Below, piece after piece: positions 4,192 to 42,638 of a stretch of 48,649 nt of DNA. Positions within the stretch are counted from its first letter, which is position 1; every line of letters begins with the position of its first letter. The notes under the pieces are model-generated. The model was not told the origin of the DNA, did not search any database, and saw nothing but the letters and a program-made list of their open reading frames with translations. This stretch comes from an uncultured Candidatus Peribacteria bacterium (GTDB lineage: Bacteria; Patescibacteriota; Gracilibacteria; Absconditabacterales; Absconditicoccaceae). Where the stretch lies: contig CAZMFL010000001.1 in the NCBI GenBank assembly GCA_964565575.1, forward strand, positions 1 through 48,649, written 5' to 3'. A program made the position numbers and the translations under genes.

Positions 4192-7100
4192 TTATTTTTC
4201 TAGGTTGTCTTTCAATCTTGCAATCATCTGTAACGCTTGCATCGGCGTTATGTTATTTGGATCAAGCGATCCCAAAAGTCTTTTTATTTTCTCCAATGTG
4301 TTTTTGGCTTCTATTGATTCCTGATCGATACTCATCGCGAAAAGAGGCATAGAATCCGGCATCTTGTCGTTGTTTTGATCACCTTGTGAGATAGAGGTAT
4401 TTCAACTATTTTTGGTTTCATACACACGTAAGTATTTTTTGGCTGCCTCGGTGATAACGCTCGGGATACCAGCCAACTTCGCCACATCTATTCCGTATGA
4501 TTTATCTGCTCCTCAACGAATAATTTTTTTCATGAAGACAACATCTTTTTGCGTTTCGTATACTGCAACAGAATAGTTTTTCACTCATGGAAGATTTTTT
4601 TCTAGTTCAATGAGTTCATGATAGTGCGTCGCGAAAAGCGTCTTTGCACCTATATATTGCACGATATATTGTACTATTGCCTGCGCAAGCGCCATACCAT
4701 CATACGTTGATGTGCCACGCCCCAACTCATCCAAGATGATAAATGATTTTTCCGTTGCATTATGCAAAATATTGGACATCTCAATCATCTCTGTCATAAA
4801 TGTGGACTGGTTTTTCGCAATTACATCCCCTGATCCGACACGCGCGAACAATCCATCTACAAGCGATATTTGGGCTGTCTGTGCAGGCACGAATAATCAA
4901 CAATGTGCCATGAGTATAATCAACGCATTTTGTCTTAAATAAGTAGATTTACCACCCATATTTGGGCCAGTAATGATAGCAAGCGTTGTGTCATCGTTCA
5001 CCAAGTCATTTGGTGTAGAGCCATCTTCGATGGCATTTTTTGGAGAGGTACTCTCGCTTATCATATTTTCTGGGATAGTAGAATTACTTTGAAGTGTCGT
5101 TGATTGCAAGATTTCTAAACTTGTTTGCTGTGCGGTTGTTGGTGTCTCTGATAGTGATTTTTCTGCCGATGATCGTTGTGACACCTCTGTGAATGATTGC
5201 TGTTGTATATCGTTGGATGTTTGTAATTTTTCTAAACTTGTTTGCTGTGCGGCTGTCGTCTCTGATAGTCATTTCTCCGCCGATGGTTCTTGTGAAACTC
5301 CAGTGAATGATTGCTGTTGTGTGTCGTTGGTTGATTGCGATTGCGAGCCGTCGGTGACAAATTGTGCTGTCCCTAGTTGTTGTGAAATTCCTGCATATGA
5401 TTGCTGTTGTGAATCGATAGTTGATTGATCTTCCTCGGTCACCGATTGAAAGATTTCTGTTGCGGCAGTTCATCATTGTGCAAATCAATTCTCACCTAGC
5501 ATTCCGCCGGTATCACGACGTTTCCCAATCAATAAATCGTTTGGAATAAAATGTTGATCGTGTGGCAAAAACGCTTCAATAACTGGATGACGCCCACCCA
5601 AAATTTGTATGGATCATGTAGTTGTCATTTCAGGTTTCACATATTTTTTTTCTTTTGCGAAAAGCGCATGGGAAGTATACAAATCAAGCCAAGCGATACC
5701 ATCGGCGAGCTCATGAAATGCTGCGCTAGCAGCCAAAAGCGAAGCTTTTGCATCTTCCAACAACGCTTGTTCAGAGGAACGTAGCTGAAATTGGGCCGAC
5801 AAGACCTTACGTTGCAACTCATCTAAATATATACTTGTATATCTTTGCCCTGTTTTCAATGTTTGACGACGAATCATCTCGCGCTTCGGGTCGCCTTTGA
5901 TACTCCTGGCTTCAAAAGCATCAACATCCTTGGGTGTAACTTCCAAAACATATCATTGATTTGACACATACTTCACTTTTACGTTTGTAATTCAGGTTGC
6001 CTGTACGAGTTCTTGTTGGTACGAGAGCAACAGATTGTCGCTGTGATATGCTATTTTTCTGAGCTCGTCAATCTCTGTGCTGTATCAATCTTGGATATAA
6101 TCAATATCGTCATTGAGTCATTCAACTTTGAGCAGACTTTCCAGATATACAAAATACTCTTTTGTCTTTTCAAGTGCTTGTGACGAAACAAGAGGTTTCA
6201 GGCCGAGAGATCAAGGGTTGCTATCTGTGGGATCTATACCCACCCGAGACCGGTTTCATAGATCTTTGTGGACTAATCCCAACGCATATCTCAATTTCCC
6301 AAATGTCATTGGATTGTTTTTTTTGTACAAGAGCGTTGAGATAATCTTGGGTAGATCGACCATCCTGCGTAAAATCTCTTGGATATTTTTTGCTTCTCAA
6401 AGATGATCAGTATAATGCGAAATCCACGCCTGACGAGTTTGAATTGTTTCTGTGTGTTGTGTCGGATGTAACAATATCTCCCTCATCAACCTCGCTCAAA
6501 GAGCAGTAGAAGTCTGGTCTATCACACCAAGCAAACTATATTTTTTGGTAGATTCATACTGTGATGTAATAATTTCCAGGTTGCGAATAGTCACAGCATC
6601 AAGCATCACGTCATCGGTTTGTGAGTCATATTGTATGCGAAGAAGTGACCTCGCTACTCCTTCTTGAATGTGTTGTAAATAATGCAACAAGAGTCACATT
6701 GCATACTCTCTGCCATCTTCAAGCGCTTTTCCGAAACTAGAAAGTGTTTGTACACCAAACAATCAACTCAAAAAACGCTCCACGTCAACTGGTTTATCGT
6801 AGGTACTTACTAAAATATCTGTTCACTGTGATGTGACGTATGTGCGAATTTCTGTGTTCTGTGGGAAGTCTATATCAACAACAATTTCGCGTGGTTGTAG
6901 TCTAGAAAGATGTCATAGGAGATCTTCAAATGTATGGAAACTTCTTGTATAGTACGAGCCAACAGTCACGTCTCACCACGCACAATGATACGAGTCCATA
7001 TCGCCTCACGTGTAGGTAATTGCGGACAAATAGACAAACTCTTTTTTGCTTTCTTCGATAAATGTCGCAGGCGTGACAATCTGTGTTACTTTACGTTCCA

Positions 7101-7407
7101 CGATCTGCCCAGTTTTCGGTTCACTCATCTGCTCAGCGATAGCGACTTTGTATCCATGAGCGACTAGTCTCGCAATGTACTTGTCTACACTATGAAATGG
7201 CACACCTGCCATTGGAGCTGGATTTTCACTCGTTCTATCTCTTGATGTAAGGGTCAAATCAAGCACTTTGGCAGCAATTTTCGCGTCTTCATTAAATGTT
7301 TCATAAAAATCTCCCATACGAAAAAAAAGAATGCAATCAGGATGTTGCTTCTTCATATCAGTGTACTGTTTCTGCGCTGGGGTTAGCTTCTCACTATCTG
7401 CATTCAT
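4192..7407 (-). CDS. mutS: DNA mismatch repair protein MutS (1071 aa, with large internal insertion)
   Basis: I hand-translated the whole gene. It is one continuous frame from ATG 7407 to TAA 4192..4194, with only TGA interruptions. The N-terminus has [11 protein letters not shown]...PMAGVPFHS, the centre has [16 protein letters not shown], the Walker A is [15 protein letters not shown], and downstream come [14 protein letters not shown] and ATHYHEL. Confidence 0.93.
4990..5520 (-). repeat. In-frame Q/S/T-rich imperfect tandem-repeat insertion within mutS (~175 codons)
   Basis: The DNA is imperfectly repeated with a period of ~110 nt (e.g. ttctaaacttgtttgctgtgcgg... occurs twice). The repeated peptide units are QQQSFT(G/E)VSQ..SAEK(G/S)[12 protein letters not shown](K/I)LQ. 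The insertion lies between [10 protein letters not shown] and [14 protein letters not shown]. Confidence 0.85.
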
Positions 7408-7468
7408 AGATGTGAGTATAGTGTTTCCTTACGACGGTGCAACAGAAAAAAGAGACAGATAATACTAC

Positions 7469-7885
7469 CTAAACACATTTAGACGTTTTTGAGTTATGCG
7501 ATAACTTTAGTAATGGAGAATTTCATCTCAAAGTAGTATTCCACGCAGTGAGTTGTTTGGAAATAGATACCATCAAAATTAGTTTCTCGGTGTACTGGTT
7601 ATGTGATAAAATGCCAACACTATTGCATGCTCTCCAAATTATTTTGATCAACTCTATGTTTTTCTTTGCCTCTACAAGATGCTCAGACTTTTCCTTAGTA
7701 TTTGTACTCAAAGACGCAAGCGATATTTCCACCAAAACATTTAAAGCATAATTTTGCAAGCGCTCTCCAAAGGTATATTTATATTCTTTAGGAAACGAAA
7801 CGACCAACCTAGACAGAATCGTTAGTATTTCAAAACTATCCTGATAGACTGGTAGATGATCATAAGAAACCATCAAAAAATTCAT
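7469..7885 (-). CDS. avd: Four-helix-bundle protein (23S rRNA-IVS / Avd-like family); candidate DGR accessory variability determinant
   Basis: The peptide MNFLMVSYDHLPVYQDSFEILTILSRLVVSFPKEYKYTFGERLQNYALNVLVEISLAS matches the typical N-terminal pattern of this family (VYQ.s..l...i...FPk.eky.l..Ql). The start is ATG 7885 or 7873. The ORF passes the TGA at 7523 and reaches TAG 7469 under code 25. It lies immediately 3' of the template repeat. Confidence 0.7.
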
Positions 7886-7966
7886 AAAATAAAAAGATTC
7901 TCCCACTCTTTTAGAACTCCTGCATGCACAGAATCCAAAAAAAGAGTGAGAGAGCAATCATAGGAG

Positions 7967-8144
7967 TTCTTGAAACAACGAGCAGAGAAACCGTTTGCAC
8001 GGTTGTTGTTATTAGCTGGGTTAATATTGGACGAATTGAAGTTCAAGTTATAGGAGTTCGTTCCATTAGGAGTAGACGACCAGTAGTTGCCGTTTGATCC
8101 CTGATTGTTAACACCAGCGCTAGCGTTGTTGCGGTTACCTGCTA
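7967..8144 (-). repeat. DGR template repeat (TR)
   Basis: The 178-nt block is homologous to 8970..9147 at an offset of 1003 nt. By hand alignment all ~27 mismatches have A in this copy (minus sense) and C, G or T in the other. In the corresponding frame it is rich in AAC/AAT codons and encodes AGNRNNASAGVNNQGSNGNYWSSTPNGTNSYNLNFNSSNINPANNNNRANGFSARCFKN. It is not part of an intact ORF. Confidence 0.9.
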
Positions 8145-8302
8145 CGTTTTGGGTGATGACTGGATTTGTGTTTTACTATCCCTAATAAAACATCTTGTAT
8201 TACTACCACTCCCACAAAAAAAGAAATAATAGCGCATCACTGAATTCCCATTTTTCCGCACGCTCAAATACCTCTACAGCATTTGACTCTGGCGGAGCAA
8301 TA

Positions 8303-8833
8303 TTACAAAATAGGAAATTGCATCTCTTCCGTTTCTATTTTTCTATCTTTTTGGGTAATATTCTCAGCGGTGTGAAAGGATGGGAAATCAAGAGGTGGCA
8401 ATGGGGTCTTCACATTCACATCCAAAAAAGGGAGATCAACATGTTTGATAATACGCATACTTGCTTCATATTTTTGAATTACACCTTTCATCTCATCAAG
8501 CAAGGAAGCATAGACATCGATTGGTATCGTGATTTCAAGCGGTTTTGTTCCAAGGTGATACTGCAGTACAACTGGTCCTGTTTCATGAATTTGGAGAAGG
8601 ACATACGAATAATCTGCTTGTTTCAACAAATCCATATATTTCTCTCCGGCGTTCGCAGGGAATCCCGTCATCCTTGCTCCTCACTGCACTTGCACTTGGA
8701 ATCCAAAGAGGTAACCCAGCAAGACAGCATCTGACTCATACGCTCTGTAAAATCCTCCAACGACAAACAACAATATTCTATTTTTCCGATCTGGATCAGT
8801 CTTGTAGTGGTTTCGATACATCTGTGGTTGCAT
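8303..8833 (-). CDS. Small MutS-domain-I-like protein (176 aa) between VR and TR; candidate DGR accessory gene
   Basis: The ORF runs from ATG 8833 (alternative 8821) to TAA 8303..8305 with one in-frame TGA. The segment ILLFVVGGFYRAYESDAVLLGYLFGFQVQVQGGARMTGFPANAGEKYMDLLKQADYSYVLLQ parallels the MutS mismatch-binding domain seen in the adjacent mutS ([29 protein letters not shown]...[29 protein letters not shown]). Confidence 0.65.
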
Positions 8834-8929
8834 ACAAAGAGTCGCTATGTGCTAAAAAAAATTTCGCGGTTGGATAGTCATTCTCCTCTCTCCTCCGCCT
8901 CTCGCTCACTACAAGCGCGTAAGGATCAA

Positions 8930-8954
8930 GGGGACAAGGGGAAAGGGTCAAGGG
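8930..8954 (+). other. G-quadruplex-type motif (four G-runs) immediately 3' of the VR-bearing gene
   Basis: The plus strand reads GGGG-ACAA-GGGG-AAA-GGG-TCAA-GGG. It is followed on the minus sense by a purine-rich tract (gagcgagaggcggaggagagaggag). The locus is unusually G/C-rich for this AT-rich window. Confidence 0.5.
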
Positions 8955-8959
8955 TTAAA

Positions 8960-10162
8960 CTATGGGGAATTCTTGAAACAACGAGCAGAGAAACCGTTTG
9001 CACGGTAGCCGTAATCAGCTGGGTCAACATCGGACGAATCGAAGCCCAAGATATAGGAGCTCGCTCCATTAGGAGTAGACGACCAGTAGCGGCCGCCTGA
9101 CCCCTGACCGTAAACACCAGCGCTAGCGATGAGGCGGCGACCTGCCATAGGTAATTTAAGTGTATCTCTCAAGAGAAATCATTTATTACTTGCATATATA
9201 GCATCTCCCGAATAGATCTTTACCCGTGCATTATACAATCATTGTCGCTCTGTGCTTGTGGGTATATGATACCCTGTAGGACATGGTCACTGTCCGCCTG
9301 GTAATCGTAGGTTGGGATTCTGAGGTGTCGCCCAGTCATATGGGCTATTTGGTGCTAGAACAAATGTACTACCAGTATATGGTGCTGTAGGGCTTGGCAC
9401 TAGTGTGCTTGTTGTTGCTATTGTAGCAGTTCAGTCTTGATTGGTTCATGCTGTTCCATTCCAGAATCCATAGTTATTCCCTCGTTGATAGTAGTATCCA
9501 TACGAAGCAGATGTTGTTCCAACTTCCGATGCTCACAGGTTTTTATCCATCATCGTGTACACATTTGTTCCATCTGATACGATAGTATGTCCTCATTCGA
9601 AATATACTCATGGTACACTTGTGTCTACAGTTCCCCCTCCTGGCACGATATTGGTTGTTAGTCACTTTCCTACTTTTTGATATGATCCTTGTTTGTCTGA
9701 GTCTATTACCCCCGTACCGTTTGTTGTGTTTCCTTTCTTGGATTCCATTAGTGCAGTAATTGCATATCCTGTTCATGCATCGTTTGTCCAGTATGCGAAT
9801 GAGTCTCCTGTCGCTAGTATTCCTCCTGGTTCCGTTGATATAGCTACCGTTCACTTCCCTGGATCTGTGGGGATGTTTGTTAGGTATGGTGAGATTGCAT
9901 CTGTTACTATTGGTGTTGCTACGCTTATTCATGGTGCGCCTGTCAGTGGTGCTCGTGGATAGGTTGTTCCTTTCTCCTGTGCGTACAGTTCTACTGCACT
10001 TGAGATCTGTCATACCTTTACTATACGCGCAGAATCACTTGCTCTTTCTTTTGCTCCTGTTAATCTAGGGACCAGTACGCCAGCGAGGATTCCGATGATC
10101 ACTACGACAACCAGCATCTCTATCAGGGTAAAAGATTTGCGTTGTGTTTGAAATTTCGTCAT
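8960..10162 (-). CDS. DGR target: type IV pilin-like N-terminus fused to a Fib_succ_major (FISUMP)/C-type-lectin-fold-like C-terminal domain (400 aa)
   Basis: I hand-translated the whole gene. It is a continuous frame from ATG 10162 to TAG 8960..8962 with 15 in-frame TGA. The N-terminus MTKFQTQRKSFTLIEMLVVVVIIGILAGVLVPRLTGAKERASDSARI is a prepilin/GspG-like class III signal plus helix. The C-terminal part has TMMDKNLGA, YGYYYQRGNNYGF, CPTGYHIPTSTE and LKLPMAGRR...YWSST...GFSARC, typical of TIGR02145-type domains that DGRs diversify. Confidence 0.85.
8970..9147 (-). repeat. DGR variable repeat (VR), last ~59 codons of the target gene
   Basis: This is the counterpart of the TR. It encodes AGRRLIASAGVYGQGSGGRYWSSTPNGASSYILGFDSSDVDPADYGYRANGFSARCFKN. 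The 3' ~36 nt (ccgtgcaaacggtttctctgctcgttgtttcaagaa) is identical to the TR, which is IMH-like. Confidence 0.9.
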
Positions 10163-10279
10163 TCAGTTGGGGTTAAGGGTAAATTGTTAGTTATTAATCA
10201 TTGTTTGTATTATAGAATCTTAAGCGTATTGCAAGGTGGATTTTCTATTATGCCGTATTTTCTATCTATACTGAAATAT

Positions 10280-10337
10280 AAAAAAATCGCCTTGCGATTT
10301 TTTTACCGACGGTCTGTCGGTGACCGACGGTTTTTTT
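10280..10337 (-). terminator. Cluster of terminator-like hairpins (bidirectional)
   Basis: A7-ATCGC-CTT-GCGAT-T7 is a palindromic hairpin with runs on both sides. It is followed by the overlapping hairpins ACCGAC-ggtct-GTCGGT and GTCGG-tga-CCGAC plus T7. The cluster lies between the ATPase stop (10440) and the target-gene start (10162). Confidence 0.5.
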
Positions 10338-10439
10338 GGAAAACTGTTAGTGTGTAGGAAACCGTAGTGAGTAACTTTGTTTGCCCGAAGGGAGTTGTTA
10401 TATAAATTTTTAAATCTTTTCTTTCAGAAAAATTGTAAT

Positions 10440-13068: not shown

Positions 13069-15879
13069 ATGAACACAGTAGCAAAACAAAAGGGAACAAG
13101 TAAAACAACGACGCTCCTGAAAACAATTGGTGGAGCGGTCCTTTTCCTCACAGTACTTTTGGGGTACACTAATTTTTTTTCACACTCAACGCACTCTGAG
13201 ATTCCCACCAAAACAGTAAGTACCGTGGCTATCAATCAAAGTTCCCAGATAGATAGTACACACTCCCAAAGCGTTTTTGATGCAACATATACATTTCAAA
13301 AAACGGTTGCATTCGCTACAGGTTGAGCGCTATCAGATCCCGCTAAAGAGGGTGCGGATGTGGACTTCGTGCAGTTATTACAAAGCTCACTAAAAGCATT
13401 TTATATGTTTTTTCGACCACTGCTCTGGATTGCAGGTCTTGCTATGGATAACTCTTTAGTCTTTGGAGAGGTGTTTAAACTAGATAAAGCTCTCTGGCAA
13501 TTTTGGCAAATGGCAAGAAATTTTGCTAATTTTATCATCTGATTTATGTTTTTGCGACAAGTACTAAAATATATTTTTGACATCAAATCATGAAAATCTG
13601 ACACGACAAATGTGACCAAAATAATCACGAAACTCTTGCTTTCTAGTGTCGGTGTACAAATGAGCTGGTTTATCATGTGAGCACTAATAGATCTTTCAAT
13701 AGTGCTGACCGCTGGGTTGTGATGATTACCATTAAATATTGTTGATCAAAATGTTGCCAGTAAACCAATTTTTGGAATGAAAACATCGGTAAAATTGAAT
13801 GCAAAAGCCGCAATAAATGACAATCTTGTAGCCGTCTATACGTGGGATTGATCAGCTCTTTCTGCCTCTACTGCCAAATACCTTCTTCCTTGTTTTACCG
13901 AAAAGGATGAAATCAAACGAGAAGAAGATTTTAAAAATGCATACAAGATCTCAGAAAAAACAGATGCTTGAGGTTGAGCTTGATGAGGTGGTAGTGGGAA
14001 AGTGTTACCTTTGACGGTAAAAAAAGAAGATATTAATCGAGATTATTGTATTTTTTGACAAGATGTTCTGACAAAAAGCAAAGCTCCAGAAGGGACAAAA
14101 TTAGTTGCATGAAATGAAAACATGCAAAACATTATCATTGAATCAAGAAAAGAATTTGTAGGGGCAATGAATTGTAAAGTGACTATTGGTGATGATGGAT
14201 ATGAAAAGGATGTAGAAAACATCAAAAAGTCTCCATGTAGCTTTTTGTGAAATCTTACGAAAAAAGGGATGTGAAAACAATGAGCATTTTTCTCGTTGTA
14301 TGCTTCTATTTTAGGCCTTTCCAGTATTCAATTAGACGCACCCTTAACAACTGCAGCACTTACAATAGAAACACTTATAAAAATGATAATCGCAGTTGCT
14401 TTTATCATACCGATAGGAATACTAATTGTCGTTTTGATTATAAGAGTAGCATATTTACGGGTAATTATAGCATTTTCTCCGCTTATAGCTTTGGGAATTG
14501 CTTGAAACATAATGCCAAAAAATCCACTTACTGACAAGTTTACTCTTTCAAGCATCTTATCTCTTATATTGTTGCCAGCAGTCGTCACCTTCGCTATATC
14601 ATTATCTATTATATTACTCACCTCCCTAACCGAGTGATTTTCTAGAAAATGATCTTTAGAAACAATCGGTATCCATCAAAGAGTAGTCGATTGAGCATCT
14701 TGTTATGATGTTTGAATTACAACATTGTGTATAAATAGCAAAGCTATAAATTTTGGCGCAGGAATTACTGATTATTTCACTTGGATAATAATGAATATTT
14801 TTGGAATAGGACTTATGTGGTTTGCTGTTATGGCAGCACTGAAAACGAGCAGTTTAACCAAGAAAACCGTTGAAAGTATTGAATGAATGGTTTCTGGTAT
14901 CGCCTGATGAGCTCAAATTATTCCTTTGCCAGGTGGCGGATATTGAAGTTATTGAGGTATCACATGAGCAGTTAAAGAAATTACCTGAAAAATTACTAAT
15001 GCTCCTGGACAACAAGTCTCAAAAACGGCAAATATTATAGATGGAATTGGAAATAACTTACTAGGAAAAGATAGAAAACTGGAGGGACAAATTAGTACAG
15101 CCACTAGCATAACACAAAATAGTGAAACGAAAATGGAAGACACATTTAAGACATTAGATAATATTGTAAAAGATGAATCTTTATTCAAAGATCTTAATGA
15201 AAACATAACACAAATTGATGGAATAAAGGATTATTTCAATGCATTAAATGCAAAAATGGGTAGCTCCTACAAATTTGAATCAGAGAAGGAAGTGTTTAAT
15301 CCAAAATCTGCTCAATGAGCCAAATTCTTGACTAATCTAGTTGCTCATGGAGATGCATATTTAGGTGAATGAAGATGATCTCAGATCATTAACAATATGA
15401 AATTCTTCTATAAAACAAATGGTGAAATAGATAAAGATATACAAGATTATTTACAAAAAATCATCGATAATAGTAAAGCAGAAAAAACGTATAAAGTTGA
15501 TACGAATGGGAAAATACAAAAAATAATCAAACTCGAACCTGAGGATGGAAAAGAAAAGTCAATAGAATTAGAAGCAACAGAAAAAGAAAAAGAATCACTC
15601 GTGGGTGAGTATGATGAGTACATAAAAAATATAAAACTAGCAGATGCTCGTAGCAAACAAAATGCTGAAGCAGAATTAACTAAATGGATTACAAAAACGT
15701 TTGGCAATACTACTACCCGTCAAGATGTTGAAAATGCCTTACGTCCTGCTAAAGCGAACAAACCAAACAACGGAGCACAAAAATCTGCTCAATCTAATCC
15801 AACTAGTTGATCTTCTACTGCGCAATCGTCAACAAATAGTGGAACTCCAAATGGGGCAAATCCAACACCAAATCCATAA
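13069..15879 (+). CDS. Large polytopic membrane protein, paralogue A (936 aa), unknown function
   Basis: I hand-translated frame 1 from ATG 13069 to TAA 15877..15879 and found only TGA interruptions. It has an N-terminal TM helix, several hydrophobic segments, and a K/E/N-rich hydrophilic C-terminal third. Confidence 0.8.
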
Positions 15880-15918: not shown

Positions 15919-17943
15919 ATGAATAAAAAATATTTCTATCTGATAGCAATCCTTGCCCTAGCGTTCTTCCTCCCATGGGATAGTGTTTTTGCGACGGTTA
16001 CTGGCGCGGAATGTGCTGAGATTTCGACATTAAACACAGCAGACGGAATAATTGGTACTATTTTCGATGTGTTAGTGAGGATAGGATCTTGGATATGGAT
16101 TATTTTTGCAGTGCTAGCGTGAAAACTTATGAGTAATGACTGGGTATATGCATCTGGACTCTGATTAGATAAAGCGCTCTGGTTGTTGTGGAATTATATG
16201 AAAAATATTGCAAATTTTGCAATTGCTTGATTACTAATATACCAAATTGTAAGATGAGTGATCGGGAAAGACTCCTTCAACATCAAAGCGCTTCTTCCCA
16301 AGGTGCTCGTTTCTACTGTGCTTGTAAATATGAGTTGGTTCATAATGGGTGCAGCAATTGATCTTTCAAATATTTGAACTGCTGCTGTCGGTGCGATTCC
16401 ACAAGCATTTCTCAAAACGAACAAAATAAACGAGACACAGATGAGAGAACTTCTTGCCACAGCAAAAGATACAATTAAAGTACAATTGGAATGTAAGGAT
16501 CCAATAGTTGCAGAGAACAAAACAAATTCTGAAAAAAAAGACTATAAGTTAGACAAGGTTTGGGCTCGTTTTAATGATATGAGCGGTCCTTTGATGTTTA
16601 TGGGAATGAGCATATTCAGATTGCAAGAATTTAATATAACAAATGATACCACGGGCAGTCGAAGCGATTTATCTCTTTCCGGCATTATCAAAATTTTTAT
16701 TCTTGTCATGTTTTTAGCTCCAATTATAGCATTATTACTCATAAATCTAAAAAGAGTCGTGTATCTTTGGATTATTATTATATTTTCTCCTCTTCTAGTT
16801 CTATTTAACGATAAGGGGCTCTCTAAAATGCCAAAATTAGAAGGGAAAGTATGATGAAATAGCATCAATGAGTTGGTTTCAATCAAAGAAATTGTAGGAA
16901 TGATATTCGCTCCAATGTTCACCATCGCTGGAATGGCAATTACTCTTATACTGACCAGTAGTATGTTTTTTGTTTTAGGATGAGCCACAACAAAAGAGAA
17001 TACCGATCCAGGTAGAGTATCAATACCGCTAGGCAATGGAGCGAGCATAACAAGAGAAAACAAAGAGACGAATTCTTTTATCACGCCAGGGAGTTCAATT
17101 ACCTTCCAAGGTGATATTTTTTCAGATGTCGCAAAATTTGCATGAGGTACGGTTTGATACCTTATTCTTGTAACAATGACTATTTTGCTTCTCCGATGAG
17201 TACTTTGAATTAGTGCAAACACCTCTAAGATTGCAGCCTCAACATATGATGGAGTCATGAAACTTGGAAAGAGTTTAACTTTGTGAGCAAAATTTATACC
17301 TATGTGATGAATGGGTGAAAAAGTTTCACTAGGATGACTTGCGTGATCGCCACAAGCTCTGATGAATAATTATAAAAGCAAAATGCAAGACAAGCAAACA
17401 GAAGAGAAACAAACTTTGACAAGAAAATTTTGAGAAACTGGTTTATGACAATTTTTTGAAAATAATTATGGTCTTAGTTTTTGAGAAATAAACGACATTG
17501 AGGATGGAACGGTGAGTAGACTATCAAATTCTTGAGGGGATAACTTTTCTGCATATTTAGGTAAATTAAAGGAGGAAGTAACAAAATTCGGAAAAACAAA
17601 AATTACAGTTTCCAGTTGAGCAAAACTCAAGAAACTTCTTACAAAATATGCATCAGAGAATCCTAGTTCAATAACAAGCCTAAGAAGTAAACCGGGTTAC
17701 AGTTTGACTCCAGGGGAACAACAAGCATTGAGTAAATTTGATGTGAAACAAGCTGATAAGTTATTTAGCACAACCGAAGATTTAGGAAAAGCGTTTATCA
17801 AAGTGGTAACTGCAGAATTAACAGGAAGCGCCTTGAGATGAAATATTACTGATAGTTCAGTACTTTTTGCTTCTGAGTCACAAAAAGCGAAAGACGCACC
17901 TGAGAGTACAGACACGCCTGAGACACCTAAAGCATCATCATAA
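15919..17943 (+). CDS. Large polytopic membrane protein, paralogue B (674 aa), unknown function
   Basis: I hand-translated the frame from ATG 15919 to TAA 17941..17943. It shares blocks with paralogue A: LDKALWLLWNYMKNIANFAIAG vs LDKALWQFWQMARNFANFIIG, NMSWFIMGAAIDLS vs QMSWFIMGALIDLS, and IIIFSPLLVL vs IIAFSPLIAL. Confidence 0.8.
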
Positions 17944-31912: not shown

Positions 31913-34900
31913 CTATTTTTTGTACACATTCAAGATTTCTGCTAATGTATCTGCTCCTGGAGGGAGGCTATTAAATATGTCTGGATTGTACTTGAGGACA
32001 ACTGCTCCATAATCTTTAAGTGCATTTTGTCTCTCTGTTGATTGTTCCTGTCATTGATACATATCAGCAAACCACGTATTTACATTTGATCTTCTTGTAG
32101 CTAGCAGGCTATCTGATGTTGTACTACGGATATTTCCACCGATGAGAATTCCATTTATAGTAATATCTCATGCATTACACCACTCTTTTGAAAGATCTGT
32201 ATTGTGAGCAGATTTTCTCCAAGATCCAAATCAAGCATCTGATGAAATATCTTCCAGAGAGATAAAGATACCATTTACTTGTTGTTGAGTATTACAACTA
32301 TCTGGTGAAAAGTGAATATTACCATTTTGAGCAATAAACATGCCCTTGTTTCATAAATTCCCCTTTACATTCAATGCGCCTTTAGTGAGGATCAATGTAA
32401 ATGGTTTTGCTGGAGTGGTCGTTTTATCACCAACTGTAATAGTAGCATTCCCATTTTCCGGAGAGAATATATATACCTCTTTATTAGGTACTTTGTAAAC
32501 GGTAACATTCGAACCTTCTTTTGATTTAAATGTTGCTCCATCAGCTTTCACTGCAATTTTTTGATAGTCTTCTATAAGCTTATTAACTGCTGTTGATACT
32601 TCGGTGCCTGGATCATAATTTGTTGTTAAATCAGGCACTCATGTTGTAAATATAGGCGAACCATCTGGGAATTGCAAGGATGAGGTGAGAGTATCTGTTG
32701 CGAAGTCACCAAGTGCACCTCTTGAAACCATATATGGTTTGGTAACGACGAAGTTCATTTGACAAACTCTTTCTGTAGAGTTTGTGGTTGTCTTGGTTGA
32801 TGTGCCATCTAAATTTCACGATGAGTTAACATTACATATTTCATAAGAAGAGACTTTCATATCTATAGAGTGCTCTCCAAGAGCCGAAGCATTAAATATA
32901 AATTTTTTTGCATCAAATCAAGCAGGTGTTGGATACTCTTCAGGTTTATATCACATTGATTTTAATATGCTATCATAAGCAGTATTTATTAATTTGTTTG
33001 TTGTTGTATTGAAACATTCTTGATCAAAATTCAATATTATGTCGTTTTTTGCATTTTGCACTATAAATTCACACATAACAGAATTTCTCACAATTTGAGA
33101 TTTAGAAGGCGCAACAGTTCAAGAAACACAACTTGTAACAAAATCAGTATTATCTAAATCAGTTCATTTTATCTTTGATTCAAGATCCCACCAAAATGGC
33201 AAATATTCATTTGATTGAATTGACGGTGGATCTATGTATCCACAAGTCGGAGCATCTACATTTTCAGGTGCTGCTTTCACTTGACATGGATAGTTTGACT
33301 TAGGTCAATAACAGAATCTTCCTTTCAACGCTCATTGAGTAATAACTGCACCAGAACCAAATCTAAATGGATCATTTGGGTTAGAAAGATTTCATTCATC
33401 ACAAATTTCATATACTCATTGGTTATTCGGTCTATGCACAATTCCATCACCACAATAAAAATTAGTTCATCCTCCACAGTTAACAACACATCAACCTGGA
33501 GAGTATGGTGTTATTTTTGCTGATGCTTCATCATCCTCAGTTCATGGATTCGCTCCTCTATTACATGGGTCAGAATCTATATCTTTTGGATTCTCGCCAA
33601 CAGAAGCTTTACCATTGTATTCACATATCTCAGCATAGTTTGTTCTTTCTACGGTTCCATTGTAAACTGCCTTGAATGTTATAATCAATGAACCCTTTGC
33701 AGGAATTGTTAAATTACTAACCAACAATTGCCTATTACCAGATGAGTACACAGCTGTTGCATTAGTCAACGATGAGTTTACGAGCGTTGAACCTTCTACA
33801 TACTCAAGATCTGCAGGCATATAATCTTTTAGGGAAAAACCAGTTACTCCTACTGTTCAACTATTCGTTACAGTAAGCGTAATTGTAACCTCAGTCGCCT
33901 TTTGCACATTTGGAAGAGTCTTTAGATTGTTAATAGTTTTTTCCAATGAAAGATCAAAATAATCATTTACTGGATTCACTGATGCAAATGATGTGTCATC
34001 TTCATCGTTCCCTGTGCCATTACATGGAATTGAATCTATGTCATATGATTTTGTCGTATCTTGGCCCATGCCATTGTAGTCACATATTTCTGTATAGTTT
34101 GTTCTCGTTACCTCATCAACATATCTTGCTTTGAACGTAAGGGTCATAGATGCTCCCGATTTCAATGTCAATCCTGTCCATATTAATGTGCCAGGAGTAG
34201 CATCACCTGCTGTATTTGAAGTATACTTACTACCACTTGAAGCTTGCACGAAAACGAAACCAGCTGGAAGATAGTCTTTTACTGTGAAGTTAGTTGCTGT
34301 ATCTGGTCATGCATTTGTTACAACCAAAGAGAAATCTATAATATCTCCTGAATGTGCTTGTATAGATTTTTTTCCATTCGCAAGTTTGTTGATTGACAGA
34401 TCGAAGTATGGTTTCGTCGTCGGTGGTATGATAACTCCATTTGATGTATCGTCTTCGTTGTTGCTTGTGCCGTTACATGGGTTTGAGTCTGCGTCATACG
34501 GTTTTGTGCTGTCTTGTCCGTTTCCTGCTCCTACACCATTGTAGTCACATATTTCTGTGTAGTTCGTTTCTCTTCCGTTTGAAATTGGTCATACGTATTT
34601 CACCTTCACTGTTAATACAAATGATCCTACCGCTCCTATATTCAAATCGCTCCATACTATCGTTTTGGTAGTCGCTGTATATGCTCCGTTATTGCTCGCA
34701 GAGACAAACTCTAGTCCCTTTGGTAGATAGTCTTTTACTGTAAATCCATTTACTCCTACTGTTCCACTGTTTGTTACTGTTAGTGTGTAATCAAACTCAT
34801 CACCTATTACTACATTTCTTTCCTTTGGTGTTTTGTTGATTGACAGATCGAAGTATGGTTTCGTCGTCGGTGGTATGATAACTCCATTTGATGTATCGTC

Positions 34901-37300
34901 TTCGTTGTTGCTTGTGCCGTTACATGGGTTTGAGTCTGCGTCATACGGTTTTGTGCTGTCTTGTCCGTTTCCTGCTCCTACACCATTGTAGTCACATATT
35001 TCTGTGTAGTTCGTTTCTCTTCCGTTTGAAATTGGTCATACGTATTTCACCTTCACTGTTAATACAAATGATCCTACCGCTCCTATATTCAAATCGCTCC
35101 ATACTATCGTTTTGGTAGTCGCTGTATATGCTCCGTTATTGCTCGCAGAGACAAACTCTAGTCCCTTTGGTAGATAGTCTTTTACTGTAAATCCATTTAC
35201 TCCTACTGTTCCACTGTTTGTTACTGTTAGTGTGTAATCAAACTCATCACCTATTACTACATTTCTTTCCTTTGGTGTTTTGTTGATTGACAGATCGAAG
35301 TATGAGTTTGTTTTCGTGATGGCGTCATCACAATTATTATTATTGAAATTATTGTCGTCTGTGATACATACTTTATTTAAAAATTCCTCTTTTGGTGCTA
35401 GTGTGCTAGGAATTTTGGCTTTGATTGTGATAGTTCATCTTGCTCCTGGTTGCAATGTTCCAACATTCCAAGTTAGCGTTTGACCATTTACAGTTGGTTG
35501 TCCAACATTCGGTGTAGATGTTGCAGAGTTAACTATATATTCTGTTTTTGCAGGAAGCGTATCAGTCACTGTTCCTGGTCGTGCAACTGTTCCACTATTT
35601 CCATAGTTTATCGTATATGTTAGCGTATCTCCAGCTACCGCAACTGCTTTATCAACTTCTTTTGTTGATCGAAGATCAACACATCACATGTAAAACTCTG
35701 CCCATGAAGGGTTGTTTTCAAGCAATGTATTTGGCTCGTTCGTTGCAGAAATTGTCAAATCATTATGTATTTTGAGTGCACTACAAACTGGCGTAGAAGC
35801 ACCAATTTTCACATATATTGTGATGGTACCACCCGCGTTTGGCGCAAGTGTTCCAATATTCCATGTAAGTTTGTTTCCATTTACAATTGGTTGTCCAATA
35901 TCTGGACTAGAAACAGAAGAATTTGCAATATATGTCACTTGCGTAGGAAGTGTGTCAGTAACTACTACTCCATTCGCCGTTCCAGCTCCTTGATTTTTGT
36001 ATGTTAATGTATACTTCACTGTTTGTCCAGGCATATATGAACCTGAAGCCACTTCAACTTTCTTGGTTGTAAGCACATCAGGATTTTCACACGATGTGGT
36101 GAAAGTTGCCGTTGAGTTGTTATTCGATGTATTTGTTTCACCATCTTTTGTGTCTGGCGCTATCGTTGCATCATTCTTGAACGGCGCACAAAATGGAGCA
36201 ATATTTAATTTTACAGAAAATGTAATTTCATTGTAGTACCCTGCTGGCATATTTCCCATATTCCAACGAAGTGTATTTGCTGTCGCATTGTATGTTGGTT
36301 CTAATGCTGTTCCATTAGAAAATCTAGTTGATCCAGCAGTATACGTAACACCGGCAGGAAGCTGATCAGCGATAATAACATTTGTCGCGGTTCCAGTACC
36401 AATATTTCTTACGATAAGTTTATATACGACAGTATCTCCTGTTACATATCATATAGTATTTCAAACTACTGATTTCACAATTGATACATCAGGAATAGCT
36501 GGTGCTAATATAGTTGTACAAGTCGCTGAACACAGTGCTCACGGTTTGCCATTTTGTGTTCCAAGGTCACATTGCTCACCCTTATTCATAGAATTTGTTG
36601 TCCCATTCCAAATGTTGTATCCATATGCATCAGTTGTTGCTACTCAAGCTGGCAATGCGCTTCCATTATCAACGATACCATCGCCACACCAAGAAACATA
36701 ATAGTTTGCACACTCGTTTCAGGATTGTCTCTCGCTTTCTGCTATTGCATAATTAGTTATGCTCCATTGTGTGGAAGCACCTATTTGCCCATTTATTATT
36801 GGATAATAAAGCCCCGCGCTTGTATTTGAGCTACCTTGTATCAATGGTACTCTAGAAATATTGTAAACTATTTGCATTGCTAGTAAAGTCGCAGTTGGTT
36901 GAGAGCCAACTGTTGCAGTAGTACCGGGAACGTTTTGTGTAGCCACTACTTCATAAACGTTCGCTGGTTTACTATTTGATGCCAGTGCAAAAGATTCATT
37001 TCCTCACTGAATTGCAAATCCAGCATACGGATTATAAATTGTAATAAGACTCTTACTTGGAGAAATAATCCAACGAAAAGCAGAACTGCTATAAAAAGTA
37101 TCATACGGATAAAATGTGCTTCACTTATAGTAACGATAATTACTAAACTTAGTACCATCATCCTGACAGGCCTGTGGAGCCAAAGATACAGTTGAGGTTT
37201 GTAAAGGTATATACGAAGCAGCAAATGTAGACGATACAAATGACATTGCTCCTAGAAGCACGCTCATTCATAAATACCTTTTTAGTGATTGCATTTTCAT
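31913..37300 (-). CDS. Giant secreted repeat protein (1795 aa): signal peptide, Cys-rich CGDG repeats, multiple DUF11-type (TIGR01451-like) beta-sandwich repeats
   Basis: I hand-translated the full length. It is a single frame from ATG 37300 to TAG 31913..31915 with only TGA interruptions. The signal-like N-terminus is MKMQSLKRYLGMSVLLGAMSFVSSTFA/AS. Two CGDGIV...CD motifs resemble the myxococcal Cys-rich repeat. Repeated modules follow the pattern V..GD...Y.ltv.N.G...a..v.v.D.LP.g..fv and are followed by YTEICDYNG..., D.DS.PCNG and NEDDTS linkers. Confidence 0.85.
34386..35309 (-). repeat. Perfect tandem direct duplication, 2 x 447 bp (+ ~30 bp of a third unit), in frame (149 codons per unit)
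   Basis: 34386..34832 and 34833..35279 are identical as far as I compared them. The spurious plus-strand ORFs 34441..34671 and 34888..35118 have identical translations. Identity continues to ~35309 and then diverges. Confidence 0.9.
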
Positions 37301-40600: not shown

Positions 40601-42638
40601 TAGCACCAATTCAGATCGCTTCAAGTTTAATATTTTTAAGATTTTCTTCTTTATTTTTTATCAAATCATTTATTAGATCTTGATATTTTTTTGCTTCTAC
40701 TGGTTTGGTAGCAGGATCTTTCGCTAATTCTTGTAACTTTGCCATAAGTTCAGAATATCATTTTCCCATCTTATCATTTATAAGGTCACTTATTTCTTTA
40801 TTGTTTGCAATAGCATCGGAAAACGCTTCTTTATCAATATATCTGGAAGTGGCTATTTCGCCTGTCTTTTGGCCTTTTTTGAATATAAGTATCGCTTCTT
40901 TTCCCATCAAAAAAAGTTTGTTCCTCAATGATTGAAGTTCAGCAGGATTTGAAATCAAATAGTCCGTAAGAGCAACTTCTGTATTTGAAGCAAGAGTTAT
41001 TGTTTTATCTTTTCCTTTTCCCATATTCATGAATGCAACAATATTTTCTATTAGTTTCCCCTCACCTAATTGTGCCTTTGCACTTTCGTACATATTAGAC
41101 AAAGCTAGTCAGGCAATAGTTGCTCCATCTTCTTTGTCTACCTTACCGTTTGCGTCTATATCTCATAACAAATAAGCTAATTTTTTATCTGTTTTAACTT
41201 TCTCTGCAGAATTGGTTACTGTTGTTAATCTAGCAATTTGTTCCCAAAGAACTTTTCCATTAGTCACATCATTATTTTCAAGAATTGGCCTTACCTGGTC
41301 AAGGAATTTTTTTACATTTTTGTCAACAATAGTGCCTGTAGTTTTAGTGTCCTTTTTGTTTACTTTTGATTTGGATTTTGGATCACTCAATTCTTCTAGA
41401 ACGGCTTCTTTTATATATTTATCAATATCGGCATCTGTAGTTTTAGAGTACTTTTCATATACTTTTGCCGCAGCTCTTGCAACACTCAACTCCGTCCTGA
41501 ATATGTTTCAGGATTTTCAAGTTCTATTATATCAATCTGGATATTTTTTATCAAACGCGATAGCGCCTGATTTTTCAACTATTGAGAATATGTCTCCAAG
41601 ATTCGTATTTTTCCCAGCTCTGACCAATATTGAAAAATCTTTTGCATCAATATTATATGTCTTTTTAATTGCTTTAAATATTTTGTTCCAAGATGGATCT
41701 TTTTTTAAGACATTCATCTCTTCTACCGTTGGCTCAATGTTATCAAATTTTTCTACATTTAATTGTGCTGTCTTAAGAAAATCTGAATTTTGTCTGTAGA
41801 AATCTGACGTTGTAGAAAGACCGTCTGTGAACGTTTTTAACGCGTTTATTTTGGTTTGTCTTAAGTTATAATCTGTTTCTTCATAAATTTCTTTTTGCAA
41901 GAACTCGCTAACTATCTTTGCTGTTCAACGAGCTTCTTTTGGCGCATTAGAAGAAAATATTTGTGTTGCCTGCTCCTTTTTAGAGTCAGCGTCTTTCGCT
42001 CTTCTTAGAATATCAACATACATTTGTTTTTTCTCTCCTGTCATTGAATTTGTTAGATTTTGTAACTCATGAAAAGCAATATTTCTTTTCGGCGCATCAA
42101 TAGTATTATCATTGAGCGTCTGAGAAAGAAGAGAAAATAGATTGTTCGCAAGCGTTTCATCGTTCAACTTAATACTATCTGCCTTCACCTCTTTAAACGC
42201 TGAAGAAATTTTCTTTGTATTTTTATTTACATTGAACTTAATCAATAAAGACGATATTTCATTAGAAATTCATTCTACCAAAGATCATAACTCTGTTTTA
42301 TATGAGCTTTCTAAATGATCAATCTCAGTAGCATATCCATACAACCAAGCGATCTGTTCTTTAACATTATCTGAAATATCATTGCCTTTTAGCAACTCCT
42401 TAATTTTTTCAATCTGATCTTTTTGTAATTCAATGTTAGGATTTTGTATTGCAGTTATTAAATTCGACAATGCCTCTTTCTTGTCATCATCAAGTTTCGA
42501 TTTTTTAAGATATTTTTGTAATTTAATTTGAATATTTTCTACTGCTTTGTCAAAAGCTCACTCAATAGATTTTTTTTCGGGAGTTCCTTCTAACCTCCTT
42601 TCTGTTTCAGATAAATTTTGGTTGGTGATGTTTGTCAT
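37617..42638 (-). CDS. Giant hypothetical protein (1673 aa), no recognisable domains, signal peptide or TM segments
   Basis: Ten ORF-track pieces share one frame. I hand-translated every gap and found only TGA between them. The start is ATG 42638 and the stop is TAA 37617..37619. The protein is K/E/N-rich and appears largely helical by composition. Confidence 0.8.

What the first reader, a model, noticed from the sequence alone, without database searches (positions are those of the whole stretch)
8960..10162. The DGR target is a pilin-like protein, suggesting a hypervariable lectin domain mounted on a type IV pilin/pseudopilin N-terminus
Seen: the N-terminus reads KSFTLIEMLVVVVIIGILAGVLVPRLTGAKERASDSARI, followed by a GspG/PilE-like helix. 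The C-terminal ~200 aa carry FISUMP (TIGR02145)-type motifs: MDKNLGA, YGYYYQRGNNYGF, CPTGYHIPTSTE, LPMAGRR..., YWSST and GFSARC. The VR covers the last 59 codons.
Established: DGRs usually diversify ligand-binding C-type-lectin-fold C-termini, and CPR bacteria depend on type IV pilus-like systems for host contact.
Inference: this would be a filament-displayed, rapidly diversifiable adhesin. That fits an epibiotic or predatory lifestyle in which the host receptor changes.
Basis: partly seen in the sequence, partly recalled or inferred. Interest (0 to 1): 0.75.

Follow-up and report, generated by a model that had tools for sequence, protein, structure and literature searches.

The report
DGR-diversified type IV pilin adhesin
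A tiny, probably host-dependent bacterium that reads TGA as glycine encodes a pilus subunit whose lectin-like outer head is rewritten by a diversity-generating retroelement, which probably gives it a changeable "grappling hook" on a type IV pilus.

Summary
Window 10162..8960 (minus strand) is one 400-codon gene once its 13 in-frame TGAs are read as Gly (code 25; nearest named relatives are Absconditabacterales).

- **Pilin module:** residues 1-63 form a class III (prepilin) signal and alpha1 helix. Phe+1, Glu+5, Gly14 and Pro22 are present, and the N_methyl models score above their cut-offs. Position -1 is Ser. A GspG-like globular module follows.
- **Head:** after a Gly-rich linker comes a 215-residue divergent FISUMP domain.
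- **DGR target:** codons 340-399 are the VR of an Avd+MSL-type DGR. 27 of 28 TR/VR mismatches fall on TR adenines.
- **Recent activity:** the ortholog in a 94%-identical genome differs in the VR at 32 of 55 TR-adenine positions and at 0 of 125 other positions.

Caveats:
- No reverse transcriptase lies anywhere in the 48.6 kb. It is missing from exactly the RT start codon onward.
- A C-type-lectin fold could not be shown.
- Filament display is inferred.

Pilin-FISUMP proteins and FISUMP DGR targets are already catalogued separately, and Bacteroides DGRs diversify type V pilus tips. This is therefore a new variant of a known kind, not a new category.

The parts
8960..10162 (-). Target gene: 400-codon bimodular prepilin (13 TGA = Gly, stop TAG at 8962..8960)
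   Evidence: identical apart from W at TGA codons to database protein P0001 on a 48,649-base NCBI contig
10133..10162 (-). Leader peptide MTKFQTQRKS (codons 1-10). Predicted prepilin-peptidase cleavage after Ser10.
   Evidence: solved pilins and GspG align with mature residue 1 at F11; -1 is S/T/A across the family
9974..10132 (-). N-methylation motif and alpha1 helix (codons 11-63): F1, E5, G14, P22 in mature numbering
   Evidence: PF07963 and TIGR02532 above cut-off; AF2 helix 13-63
9668..9973 (-). Globular pilin module (codons 64-165), GspG-like (IPTDPGKG, TGDSFAYWTN, YAITALMESKKGNTTN). It is the most conserved globular part of the family.
   Evidence: TIGR01710 residues 10-101, E 1.3e-12; 67% mean pairwise identity against 45% for the head; AF2 confidence is low here
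9608..9667 (-). Gly-rich linker (codons 166-185)
   Evidence: pLDDT below 50 over residues 141-179; 38% family identity with length variation
8963..9607 (-). Head: divergent FISUMP (Fib_succ_major) domain (codons 186-400), with a conserved Cys294/Cys395 pair
   Evidence: AF2 of residues 182-400 gives pLDDT 88.4 and pTM 0.86; best BFVD matches are phage FISUMP proteins
8966..9145 (-). Variable region (VR), codons 340-399
8916..8957 (-). Conserved C-rich element immediately 3' of the stop codon. It is a G-quadruplex motif on the + strand at 8930-8954 and the only such motif in the window. It follows the stop codon of most VR-bearing relatives examined.
8303..8833 (-). MSL (MutS-like) DGR accessory gene, 176 aa (one TGA = Gly)
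   Evidence: PF01624 MutS_I, 28 bits against a cut-off of 20.6; near-identical gene in the same position in L001; MSL class defined in Wu et al. 2018
7963..8142 (-). Template repeat (TR), 180 nt, 55 adenines, 20 AAY codons
7469..7885 (-). Avd accessory gene. Its 3' end abuts mutS (start at 7407), so no RT gene follows.
   Evidence: PF22296 bAvd, 42.2 bits against a cut-off of 40; NF033474 E 1.5e-8; junction alignment

Best explanation
The gene encodes a bimodular ("modular") type IV pilin of a code-25 CPR bacterium whose nearest named relatives are Absconditabacterales.

**Proposed mechanism**
1. A prepilin peptidase is predicted to cut after Ser10 and methylate Phe11.
2. The alpha1 helix and the GspG-like globular module let the protein be taken up by the type IV pilus machinery.
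3. Because a 215-residue head hangs on a flexible Gly-rich linker, the subunit most likely sits at the filament tip or is a low-abundance subunit.
4. The head is a divergent FISUMP domain. Its last 60 codons are the VR of an MSL+Avd-type diversity-generating retroelement.
5. cDNA made from the adjacent TR, with adenines misread, replaces the VR. This randomises about 20 Asn (AAY) codons that lie on three C-terminal beta-strands and their loops, while the scaffold (YWSST, R..GFSxRCFKN, the Cys pair) is kept.
6. The result is a pilus-displayed ligand-binding head whose specificity can be re-drawn quickly, presumably to keep or switch attachment to host or prey surface molecules.

**Shown**
- Gene structure and genetic code.
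- Pilin signature.
- FISUMP homology.
- TR/VR adenine-specific pattern and its recent activity.
- Modularity of the family.

**Inferred**
- Cleavage despite Ser at -1.
- Incorporation into a filament and a tip position.
- Ligand (glycan?) binding.
- The RT acting from elsewhere in the genome.
For: **Code 25:**

**Pilin signature:**

**FISUMP head:**
- E 1e-20 to 1e-26 to named FISUMP proteins.
- 20 of 20 relatives hit PF09603.
- A confident AF2 model best matches phage FISUMP models (E 1.5e-3, probability 1.0).

**DGR:**
- 27 of 28 mismatches at TR adenines and 20 AAY codons.
- Avd and MSL score above Pfam cut-offs.
- The orthologous cassette in a relative is target-MSL-TR-Avd-RT, with IGNLTSQ and YVDD motifs in the RT. 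Its TR also serves a second, remote pilin paralog.

**Recent activity:**
- The window VR and the ortholog VR differ at 32 of 55 TR-adenine positions and 0 of 125 others.
- The rest of the gene differs by 2.4%.
- Across 20 family members, entropy at AAY positions is 2.71 bits against 1.28 at other VR positions.

**Pilus context:**
- A distant pilin-FISUMP homolog lies directly downstream of pilM, pilO and pilB.
- A PilT-like ATPase lies near a paralog.

**Modularity:**
- The same pilin module carries BspA-LRR heads in P0022, P0284 and P0309.
- A related MSL-Avd-RT cassette diversifies a FISUMP head on a Sec-type signal peptide instead.

**Literature:**
- Modular pilins are adhesins, probably at the tip (PMC8179133).
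- TM7x PilX2, a pilin with a lectin-like module, is needed for host binding (PMC11623550).
Against: - No RT gene or YxDD-type RT motif lies in the whole 48.6-kb contig. The cassette stops at the RT start codon and runs into mutS. Diversification in this genome needs an unseen trans RT or has stopped.
- Position -1 is Ser (S/T/A in the family), not the near-universal Gly.
- No prepilin peptidase, PilB, PilC or PilM-O lies in the window.
- The globular pilin module is modelled with low confidence (pLDDT about 40-60).
- The GspG hit is below the equivalog cut-off.
- A C-type-lectin fold is not confirmed. Foldseek against PDB finds nothing significant, and a profile search against PDB sequences finds nothing.
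- No ligand is known for any FISUMP domain.
Confidence: 0.7

Rival explanations
1. Frozen relic. The pilin-FISUMP protein is real, but in this genome the DGR is defunct because the RT has been deleted. The VR is then a fixed sequence and the protein an ordinary, non-diversifying adhesin.
For: - No RT lies in the 48.6 kb.
- Homology to the intact cassette of L001 ends exactly at the RT start codon, and mutS upstream sequence follows.
- The 94%-identical genome GCA_964642385.1 lacks the whole MSL-TR-Avd block at this site. The locus is therefore being remodelled.
Against: - TR and VR show no decay. The only non-adenine mismatch is at the extreme 3' end, where IMH and IMH* normally differ.
- Avd and MSL reading frames are intact.
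- The ortholog in the genome without a local TR still differs from the window's TR only at adenines (25 of 26). It also differs from the window's VR only at TR-adenine positions. This implies retrohoming after the two lineages split, hence a working RT somewhere.
- TRs serving remote targets are seen in the relative.
Confidence: 0.2
2. Membrane-anchored surface protein, not a filament subunit. The pilin-like N-terminus acts only as an uncleaved signal-anchor, favoured by Ser rather than Gly at -1. The head is displayed directly on the cell envelope.
For: - Position -1 is S/T/A in all family members.
- No pilus machinery lies in the window.
- DGR catalogues annotate comparable FISUMP targets simply as 'TMhelix [7-26]' (Roux et al. 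2021 supplement).
Against: - The full set of pilin-specific residues (F1, E5, G14, P22) is kept.
- A conserved GspG-like globular module of about 100 residues follows, which an anchor would not need.
- A distant homolog sits in the pilin position of a pilMNO-pilB operon.
- From my own knowledge, not tested here: Ala at -1 occurs in functional pilins such as streptococcal ComGC.
Confidence: 0.12
3. The selective force is evasion, not adhesion. The exposed pilin head is diversified to escape phages or antagonists that use the pilus as a receptor, rather than to track host ligands.
For: - Type IV pili are common phage receptors (general knowledge).
- The same head domain occurs in phage proteins (BFVD hits annotated FISUMP; P0250 has a head plus a Peptidase_S74 tail-fibre chaperone).
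Against: - Variable codons are concentrated in 60 C-terminal codons on a few adjacent strands, with an invariant scaffold. This is the pattern of DGR ligand-binding sites, not of whole-surface antigenic variation.
- All characterised DGR variable proteins are binders (papers read).
Confidence: 0.08

Closest known systems
Bacteroides DGR-diversified type V pilus tip adhesins (BfrT, BthT, BunT; bioRxiv 10.1101/2024.11.15.621889)
   Same: - A DGR with Avd and Msl accessory genes rewrites the C-terminal head of a pilus subunit.
- The head relates to the 4EPS tip pilin, which was also my top, though non-significant, PDB Foldseek hit.
- Type V pilin plus FISUMP proteins appear among the homologs (P0052).
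   Different: - The carrier here is a type IV pilin (class III signal, alpha1 helix, ATPase-driven assembly). It is not a lipoprotein type V pilin assembled by strand exchange.
- The host is a code-25 CPR bacterium.
- The RT is absent from the local cassette.
Modular type IV pilins: S. sanguinis PilB (vWA) and PilC (lectin), and TM7x PilX1/PilX2 (PMC8179133, PMC9934059, PMC11623550)
   Same: - A small pilin module is joined by a short linker to a bulky binding module, probably exposed at the tip.
- PilX2 is required for host binding in a CPR epibiont.
- The architecture IPR012902-IPR011871 is the fifth commonest modular pilin in Raynaud et al., with 40 proteins. From my own knowledge, IPR011871 is the FISUMP/TIGR02145 entry.
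   Different: - None of those pilins is reported to be diversified by a DGR.
- Their modules are static.
Canonical DGR variable proteins (Bordetella phage Mtd, Treponema TvpA, Legionella LdtA) and catalogued FISUMP or DUF1566 targets
   Same: - The VR lies at the C-terminus.
- AAY-rich TR and adenine-specific substitutions are present.
- Avd is present, plus MSL as in Legionella (architecture D of Wu et al. 2018).
- FISUMP targets are already listed: 43 in PMC11661182 and PF09603 entries in the Roux 2021 supplement.
   Different: - Display is through a pilin module rather than a tail fibre, lipoprotein or Sec/TAT signal.
- A C-type-lectin fold is not verified here.
GspG, the T2SS major pseudopilin (TIGR01710; PDB 5wda)
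   Same: Best profile and PDB matches for residues 10-101; shared alpha1 helix and DP-containing loop.
   Different: - The score of 47.9 is far below the equivalog cut-off of 88.85.
- The protein carries a 215-residue head.
- From general knowledge, CPR bacteria lack an outer membrane for a T2SS to cross.

Membership tests
Type IV pilin (class III signal peptide; PF07963 / TIGR02532) | N-terminal methylation motif scoring above the curated cut-offs | tested here: met
   PF07963 29.4 bits against 21.2; TIGR02532 22.1 against 16.3
Type IV pilin (class III signal peptide; PF07963 / TIGR02532) | Gly at position -1 of the cleavage site | tested here: not met
   Ser10 in the window protein; S, T or A in every family member with an intact N-terminus. 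Small residues only, so cleavage is plausible but unproven.
Type IV pilin (class III signal peptide; PF07963 / TIGR02532) | Phe+1, Glu+5, about 20 hydrophobic residues with Gly14 and Pro22, and a long alpha1 helix | tested here: met
   FTLIEMLVVVVIIGILAGVLVP read directly; solved pilins align from F11; AF2 helix 13-63
Type IV pilin (class III signal peptide; PF07963 / TIGR02532) | Globular alpha-beta pilin domain after alpha1 | tested here: inconclusive
   GspG profile match to residue 101, E 1.3e-12. AF2 strands over residues 123-166 have pLDDT of only 40-60. The model was built on the TGA-as-Trp translation.
Type IV pilin (class III signal peptide; PF07963 / TIGR02532) | Prepilin peptidase and assembly machinery (PilB, PilC, PilM-O) in the same genome | not testable with these tools
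   None in the window, and only this contig is available. Indirect support: a PilT-like ATPase lies near paralog P0004, and pilM-pilO-pilB lies directly upstream of the distant homolog P0030.
GspG (T2SS major pseudopilin, TIGR01710 equivalog) | Score above the equivalog cut-off | tested here: not met
   47.9 bits against 88.85. GspG-like, not GspG.
FISUMP domain (PF09603 / TIGR02145) | Score above the curated cut-off | tested here: not met
   PF09603 19.2-20.5 bits against 33.9; TIGR02145 20.9 against 41.65
FISUMP domain (PF09603 / TIGR02145) | Significant homology over the whole domain to bona fide members, with the conserved motifs | tested here: met
   E 1e-20 to 1e-26 and 36-42% identity over about 90% of the domain to PF09603 proteins, including a named Algoriphagus FISUMP protein. 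20 of 20 aligned relatives hit PF09603. NLG, YGxxYQxG, CPxGYxxPT, LPxAGxR, YWSS and GxSxRC are conserved.
FISUMP domain (PF09603 / TIGR02145) | Fold similarity to other FISUMP domains | tested here: met
   The C-domain model (pLDDT 88.4) best matches BFVD phage proteins annotated FISUMP: E 1.5e-3 with probability 1.00, and E 9.2e-2 with probability 0.96. These are borderline E-values, and predicted models are compared with predicted models.
DGR variable protein (target gene) | TR/VR pair whose differences fall at TR adenines, with the VR at the 3' end of an ORF | tested here: met
   27 of 28 mismatches at adenines, P about 2.5e-13; VR = codons 340-399 of 400
DGR variable protein (target gene) | DGR reverse transcriptase in the cassette | tested here: not met
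   No RT ORF or motif in the window, and the junction is at the RT start codon. The RT is present in the homologous cassette of L001.
DGR variable protein (target gene) | Accessory genes (Avd; MSL of architecture D) | tested here: met
   bAvd 42.2 bits against 40; MutS_I 28 against 20.6; classes as defined in Wu et al. 2018
DGR variable protein (target gene) | Evidence of actual diversification | tested here: met
   The ortholog VR differs at 32 of 55 TR-adenine positions and 0 of 125 others; family entropy is 2.71 against 1.28 bits
DGR variable protein (target gene) | C-type-lectin fold of the VR-bearing domain | tested here: inconclusive
   Foldseek against PDB: best 4eps at E 0.38 and CEL-I C-type lectin at E 3. 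3 of 20 relatives weakly hit Lcl_C/DUF1566, which the DGR literature treats as a CLec fold. No solved FISUMP structure was found by sequence.
Modular type IV pilin (sensu Raynaud et al. 2021) | A pilin module fused by a linker to an independent functional module that also occurs outside pilins | tested here: met
   The head occurs alone, in tandem arrays in giant proteins, and on a Sec signal. The same pilin module carries BspA-LRR heads. The linker is low-confidence and of variable length.

The most novel reading that the evidence does not exclude
In code-25 CPR predators or epibionts (Absconditabacterales), host or prey recognition is set by a small family of type IV pilus tip pilins that share one carrier module. 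Their FISUMP heads would be reprogrammed by a single, possibly distant, DGR reverse transcriptase serving several loci. These loci include RT-less MSL-TR-Avd cassettes and remote VRs. The conserved C-rich (G-quadruplex-forming) element just after each VR would mark the retrohoming sites in place of the hairpin or cruciform used by the Bordetella phage DGR.
Probability: 0.3. Interest if true: 0.72.

Novelty: new variant of a known kind. Interest (0 to 1): 0.52.

Why it matters
How CPR/Patescibacteria find and hold their hosts is largely unknown. Type IV pili are the best-supported attachment organelle: TM7x PilX2 is needed for host binding.

A pilin whose binding head is a DGR target would link two recurring CPR traits, abundant DGRs and near-universal type IV pili, into one testable mechanism for host-range plasticity. 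It would also give a concrete molecule to express, bind and image.

It parallels the Bacteroides type V pilus case. The same kind of Avd+MSL DGR and FISUMP-type head appears to have been coupled independently to two unrelated pilus systems.

The RT-less cassette and the conserved post-VR C-rich element bear on how DGR targets are recognised in trans.

Tried and rejected
- **Genome-contig scan with the family alignment.** The patterns chosen (VVIIGILA...) matched generic pilins of many phyla.
- **Structure prediction with the correct code-25 sequence.** The full-length model was mediocre (pLDDT 66) and its Foldseek search was uninformative.
- **Search for a solved FISUMP or CLec relative by sequence.** A profile of the head against PDB found nothing. 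A type V pilin-FISUMP homolog (P0052) against PDB also found nothing.
- **Exact-sequence contig look-ups** for P0001 and P0022 found nothing.
- **Paul et al. 2017 (PMC5436926),** the key CPR DGR paper, is not held. I could not check whether it already describes pilin-type targets. The supplement of PMC11661182 that lists the 'GspG-type pilin' target is not held either.
- **Metagenome scan with MSL** returned only one locus.
- **Rejected ideas.**
  - That the broken table-11 ORFs mean a pseudogene: all internal stops are TGA, and homologs keep the frame.
  - That the protein is a GspG ortholog: it scores below the cut-off.
  - That the N-terminus is a Sec signal: no such cleavage context, and the pilin residues are conserved.
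Full report
**1. What is at the coordinates**

- Under the standard bacterial code the region breaks into short ORFs. The minus-strand frame from 10162 to 8960 is interrupted only by TGA, 13 times, and ends in TAG.
- TGA is a sense codon throughout the contig: 209 in-frame TGA against 9 TAA/TAG in nine long genes.
- In RpoC, TGA codons align to conserved glycines of solved RNA polymerases (WSFG, HRG, aNGEP).
- The organism therefore uses code 25. From my own knowledge, this code is confined to Gracilibacteria and Absconditabacteria (SR1). The only named relatives of its EF-Ts are Absconditabacterales/Absconditabacteria.
- The window is a whole 48,649-base NCBI contig. The database holds its protein translated with Trp at TGA (P0001).

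**2. The N-terminal module**

- The sequence reads MTKFQTQRKS|FTLIEMLVVVVIIGILAGVLVP. It has a short basic leader, Phe+1, Glu+5, Gly14 and Pro22.
- PF07963 and TIGR02532 score above their curated cut-offs.
- The GspG equivalog model matches residues 10-101 at E 1.3e-12 but well below its cut-off.
- Solved GspG, geopilin and PilA/PilE chains align with their mature residue 1 on F11.
- AlphaFold2 predicts one helix over residues 13-63.
- The following globular part (residues 64-165) is modelled poorly. It is nevertheless the most conserved globular part of the family, at 67% mean pairwise identity against 45% for the head.
- Position -1 is Ser here and S, T or A in all relatives, never Gly. This is the one classical pilin feature that is not met.

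**3. The C-terminal module**

- Direct Pfam and TIGRFAM hits to FISUMP are sub-threshold.
- Residues 182-400 alone find bona fide FISUMP proteins at E 1e-20 to 1e-26 over about 90% of their length.
- All 20 aligned relatives hit PF09603, the best at 1.5e-36. Three also touch Lcl_C/DUF1566.
- A confident model of the head (pLDDT 88.4, pTM 0.86) finds nothing significant in the PDB. The best hits are the type V fimbrial tip 4eps at E 0.38 and the C-type lectin CEL-I at E 3.
- Its best BFVD matches are phage proteins annotated as FISUMP (E 1.5e-3, probability 1.0).
- The head is therefore a divergent FISUMP domain. A C-type-lectin fold is plausible but not shown.
- Cys294 and Cys395 are almost invariant. 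This fits an extracellular disulfide, which is an inference.

**4. The DGR**

- VR (9145..8966, codons 340-399) and TR (8142..7963) are 180 nt long. They differ at 28 positions, 27 of them TR adenines (P about 2.5e-13). The TR has 20 AAY codons.
- The single other mismatch is at the extreme 3' end, where IMH and IMH* usually differ.
- Between VR and TR lies a 176-aa MutS_I-like gene. This is the MSL accessory class of Wu et al. 2018. After the TR lies Avd. Both score above Pfam cut-offs.
- No RT is in the window.
- A relative (ENA scaffold_116, locus L001) has the same cassette with the RT: target-MSL-TR-Avd-RT. The window is homologous to it up to the RT start codon and then joins the mutS upstream region.
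- A 94%-identical genome (GCA_964642385.1, locus L086) lacks the whole MSL-TR-Avd block at this site.
- That genome's ortholog differs from the window's TR at adenines only (25 of 26 mismatches). It differs from the window's VR at 32 of 55 TR-adenine positions and at none of 125 other positions. The rest of the gene is 2.4% divergent.
- This is direct evidence for retrohoming after the two lineages separated, and it implies RTs and TRs acting at a distance.
- In scaffold_116 one TR matches two VRs about 50 kb apart, each with adenine-only differences.

**5. The family**

- About 20 close homologs (44-63% identity) share the architecture.
- Among 1.84 billion 50%-identity cluster representatives, only about seven matched the family profile over essentially its full length. 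The head alone is common, often in tandem arrays in giant proteins: 418 proteins at E below 1e-30.
- Genomes carry several paralogs.
- The same pilin module carries BspA-type LRR heads in P0022, P0284 and P0309.
- A related MSL-TR-Avd-RT cassette diversifies a FISUMP head that has an ordinary Sec-type signal peptide.
- More distant pilin-FISUMP proteins of standard-code CPR genomes have no TR or RT nearby. One of them lies directly after pilM, pilO and pilB, in the position of a pilin gene.

**6. Mechanism**

The best reading is a bimodular type IV pilin that is processed at S10|F11. It is then incorporated, probably at the tip, into a type IV pilus. It presents a FISUMP head whose C-terminal strands and loops are rewritten by the DGR. 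Section 8 of this report and the best-explanation section say which steps are shown and which are inferred.

Rivals:
- A frozen relic after RT loss (0.2).
- A signal-anchored, non-polymerised surface protein (0.12).
- Diversification for phage evasion rather than ligand tracking (0.08).

**7. Comparison with what is known**

- Modular pilins are well described. The architecture IPR012902-IPR011871 is the fifth commonest in Raynaud et al. 2021, with 40 proteins. That IPR011871 is FISUMP is from my own knowledge.
- FISUMP domains are listed among DGR targets: 43 in PMC11661182, and entries such as 'PF09603 + TMhelix [7-26]' in the Roux et al. 2021 supplement. A 'GspG-type pilin' domain is mentioned in passing as a rare VR-bearing domain.
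- Among the top-ranked results of my full-text searches, no paper linked DGRs explicitly to type IV pilins. Paul et al. 2017 could not be read.
- The finding is therefore a new, uncharacterised variant of known kinds, not a new category.

**8. Verdict**

- Three caveats stand: no local RT, an unproven CLec fold, and inferred filament display.
- Interest is moderate. A specialist would not be astonished. The locus does make the question of CPR host recognition directly testable, and it comes with two unexplained extras: the RT-less cassette and the post-VR G-quadruplex-type element.

Noticed in passing
window 7407-7469 (junction), compared with L001 12590-12770 and L086 11355-11543: The DGR cassette has no reverse transcriptase. 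Homology to the intact cassette of a relative stops at the RT start codon, and mutS follows 60 nt after the Avd stop. In a 94%-identical genome the whole MSL-TR-Avd block (window 8842..7451) is absent, yet its target still carries a VR matching this TR.
   Followed up: partly
window 8916-8957 (G4 motif at 8930-8954, + strand); also L001 11225, L002 11252, L004 11195, L086 7508: The only canonical G-quadruplex / i-motif pattern in the 36%-GC window lies just after the target's stop codon. The same roughly 40-nt C-rich element (TAACCCTTGACCCTTTCCCCTTGTCCCCTTGA) follows the VR-bearing 3' ends in the related loci examined. The L086 ortholog P0095 has a degenerate copy, and the L086 7508 copy follows a 3'-end fragment about 470 nt downstream of P0016. 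In each locus it is the only such motif, and it is absent after the TRs. It may be a retrohoming target-site element.
   Followed up: partly
window 9648-10392 compared with L086 5638-6382 and 10064-11355: The window's target looks like a recombinant of two paralogs. The leader peptide and upstream region match paralog P0016 of GCA_964642385.1 (81%), and the body matches P0095 (94%). The roughly 3 kb that separates those paralogs there (including a YebC-family gene) is missing here.
   Followed up: partly
whole window: The genome uses genetic code 25 (TGA = Gly). Table-11 ORF calls are fragmented throughout, and the public protein collection holds these proteins with Trp at TGA positions. This lowers model scores, for example for FISUMP.
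   Followed up: yes
window about 4910-5380 (within mutS, 4192-7407, minus strand): MutS is 1071 aa because of an insertion of roughly 190 residues that is Q/S/T-rich and internally repeated (QQQSF.GVSQ...[15 protein letters not shown]). The insertion is the most divergent part of the gene relative to the 94%-identical genome.
   Followed up: no
window 13069-15879 and 15919-17943 (+ strand): Two adjacent large multi-pass membrane proteins (936 and 674 aa) look similar by eye near the N-terminus (LDKALW..W....N.ANF; SWFIMGA.IDLS). Neither has any Pfam match.
   Followed up: partly
window 31913-37300 and 37617-42638 (minus strand): Two giant ORFs of 1795 and 1673 aa. The first has a signal peptide and repeated Ig-like surface repeats. 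They may be further host-interaction proteins, as described for Vampirococcus. They were not scanned.
   Followed up: no
L090 1-3426 (metagenome contig AUXO012692422.1): A related MSL-TR-Avd-RT cassette is followed by a FISUMP-type target with an ordinary Sec-type signal peptide instead of a pilin module. The same DGR type therefore serves heads on different carriers.
   Followed up: partly
L087 1136-7224 (GCA_009712145.1): In a standard-code CPR genome a pilin-FISUMP protein (P0030) lies directly downstream of pilM, pilO and a 573-aa PilB-type ATPase. No TR or RT lies within 6 kb.
   Followed up: partly
proteins P0022, P0284, P0309 (no window coordinates): The same conserved pilin module, including Ala or Ser at -1, is fused to BspA-type leucine-rich-repeat heads instead of FISUMP heads. 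The module acts as an exchangeable carrier.
   Followed up: partly
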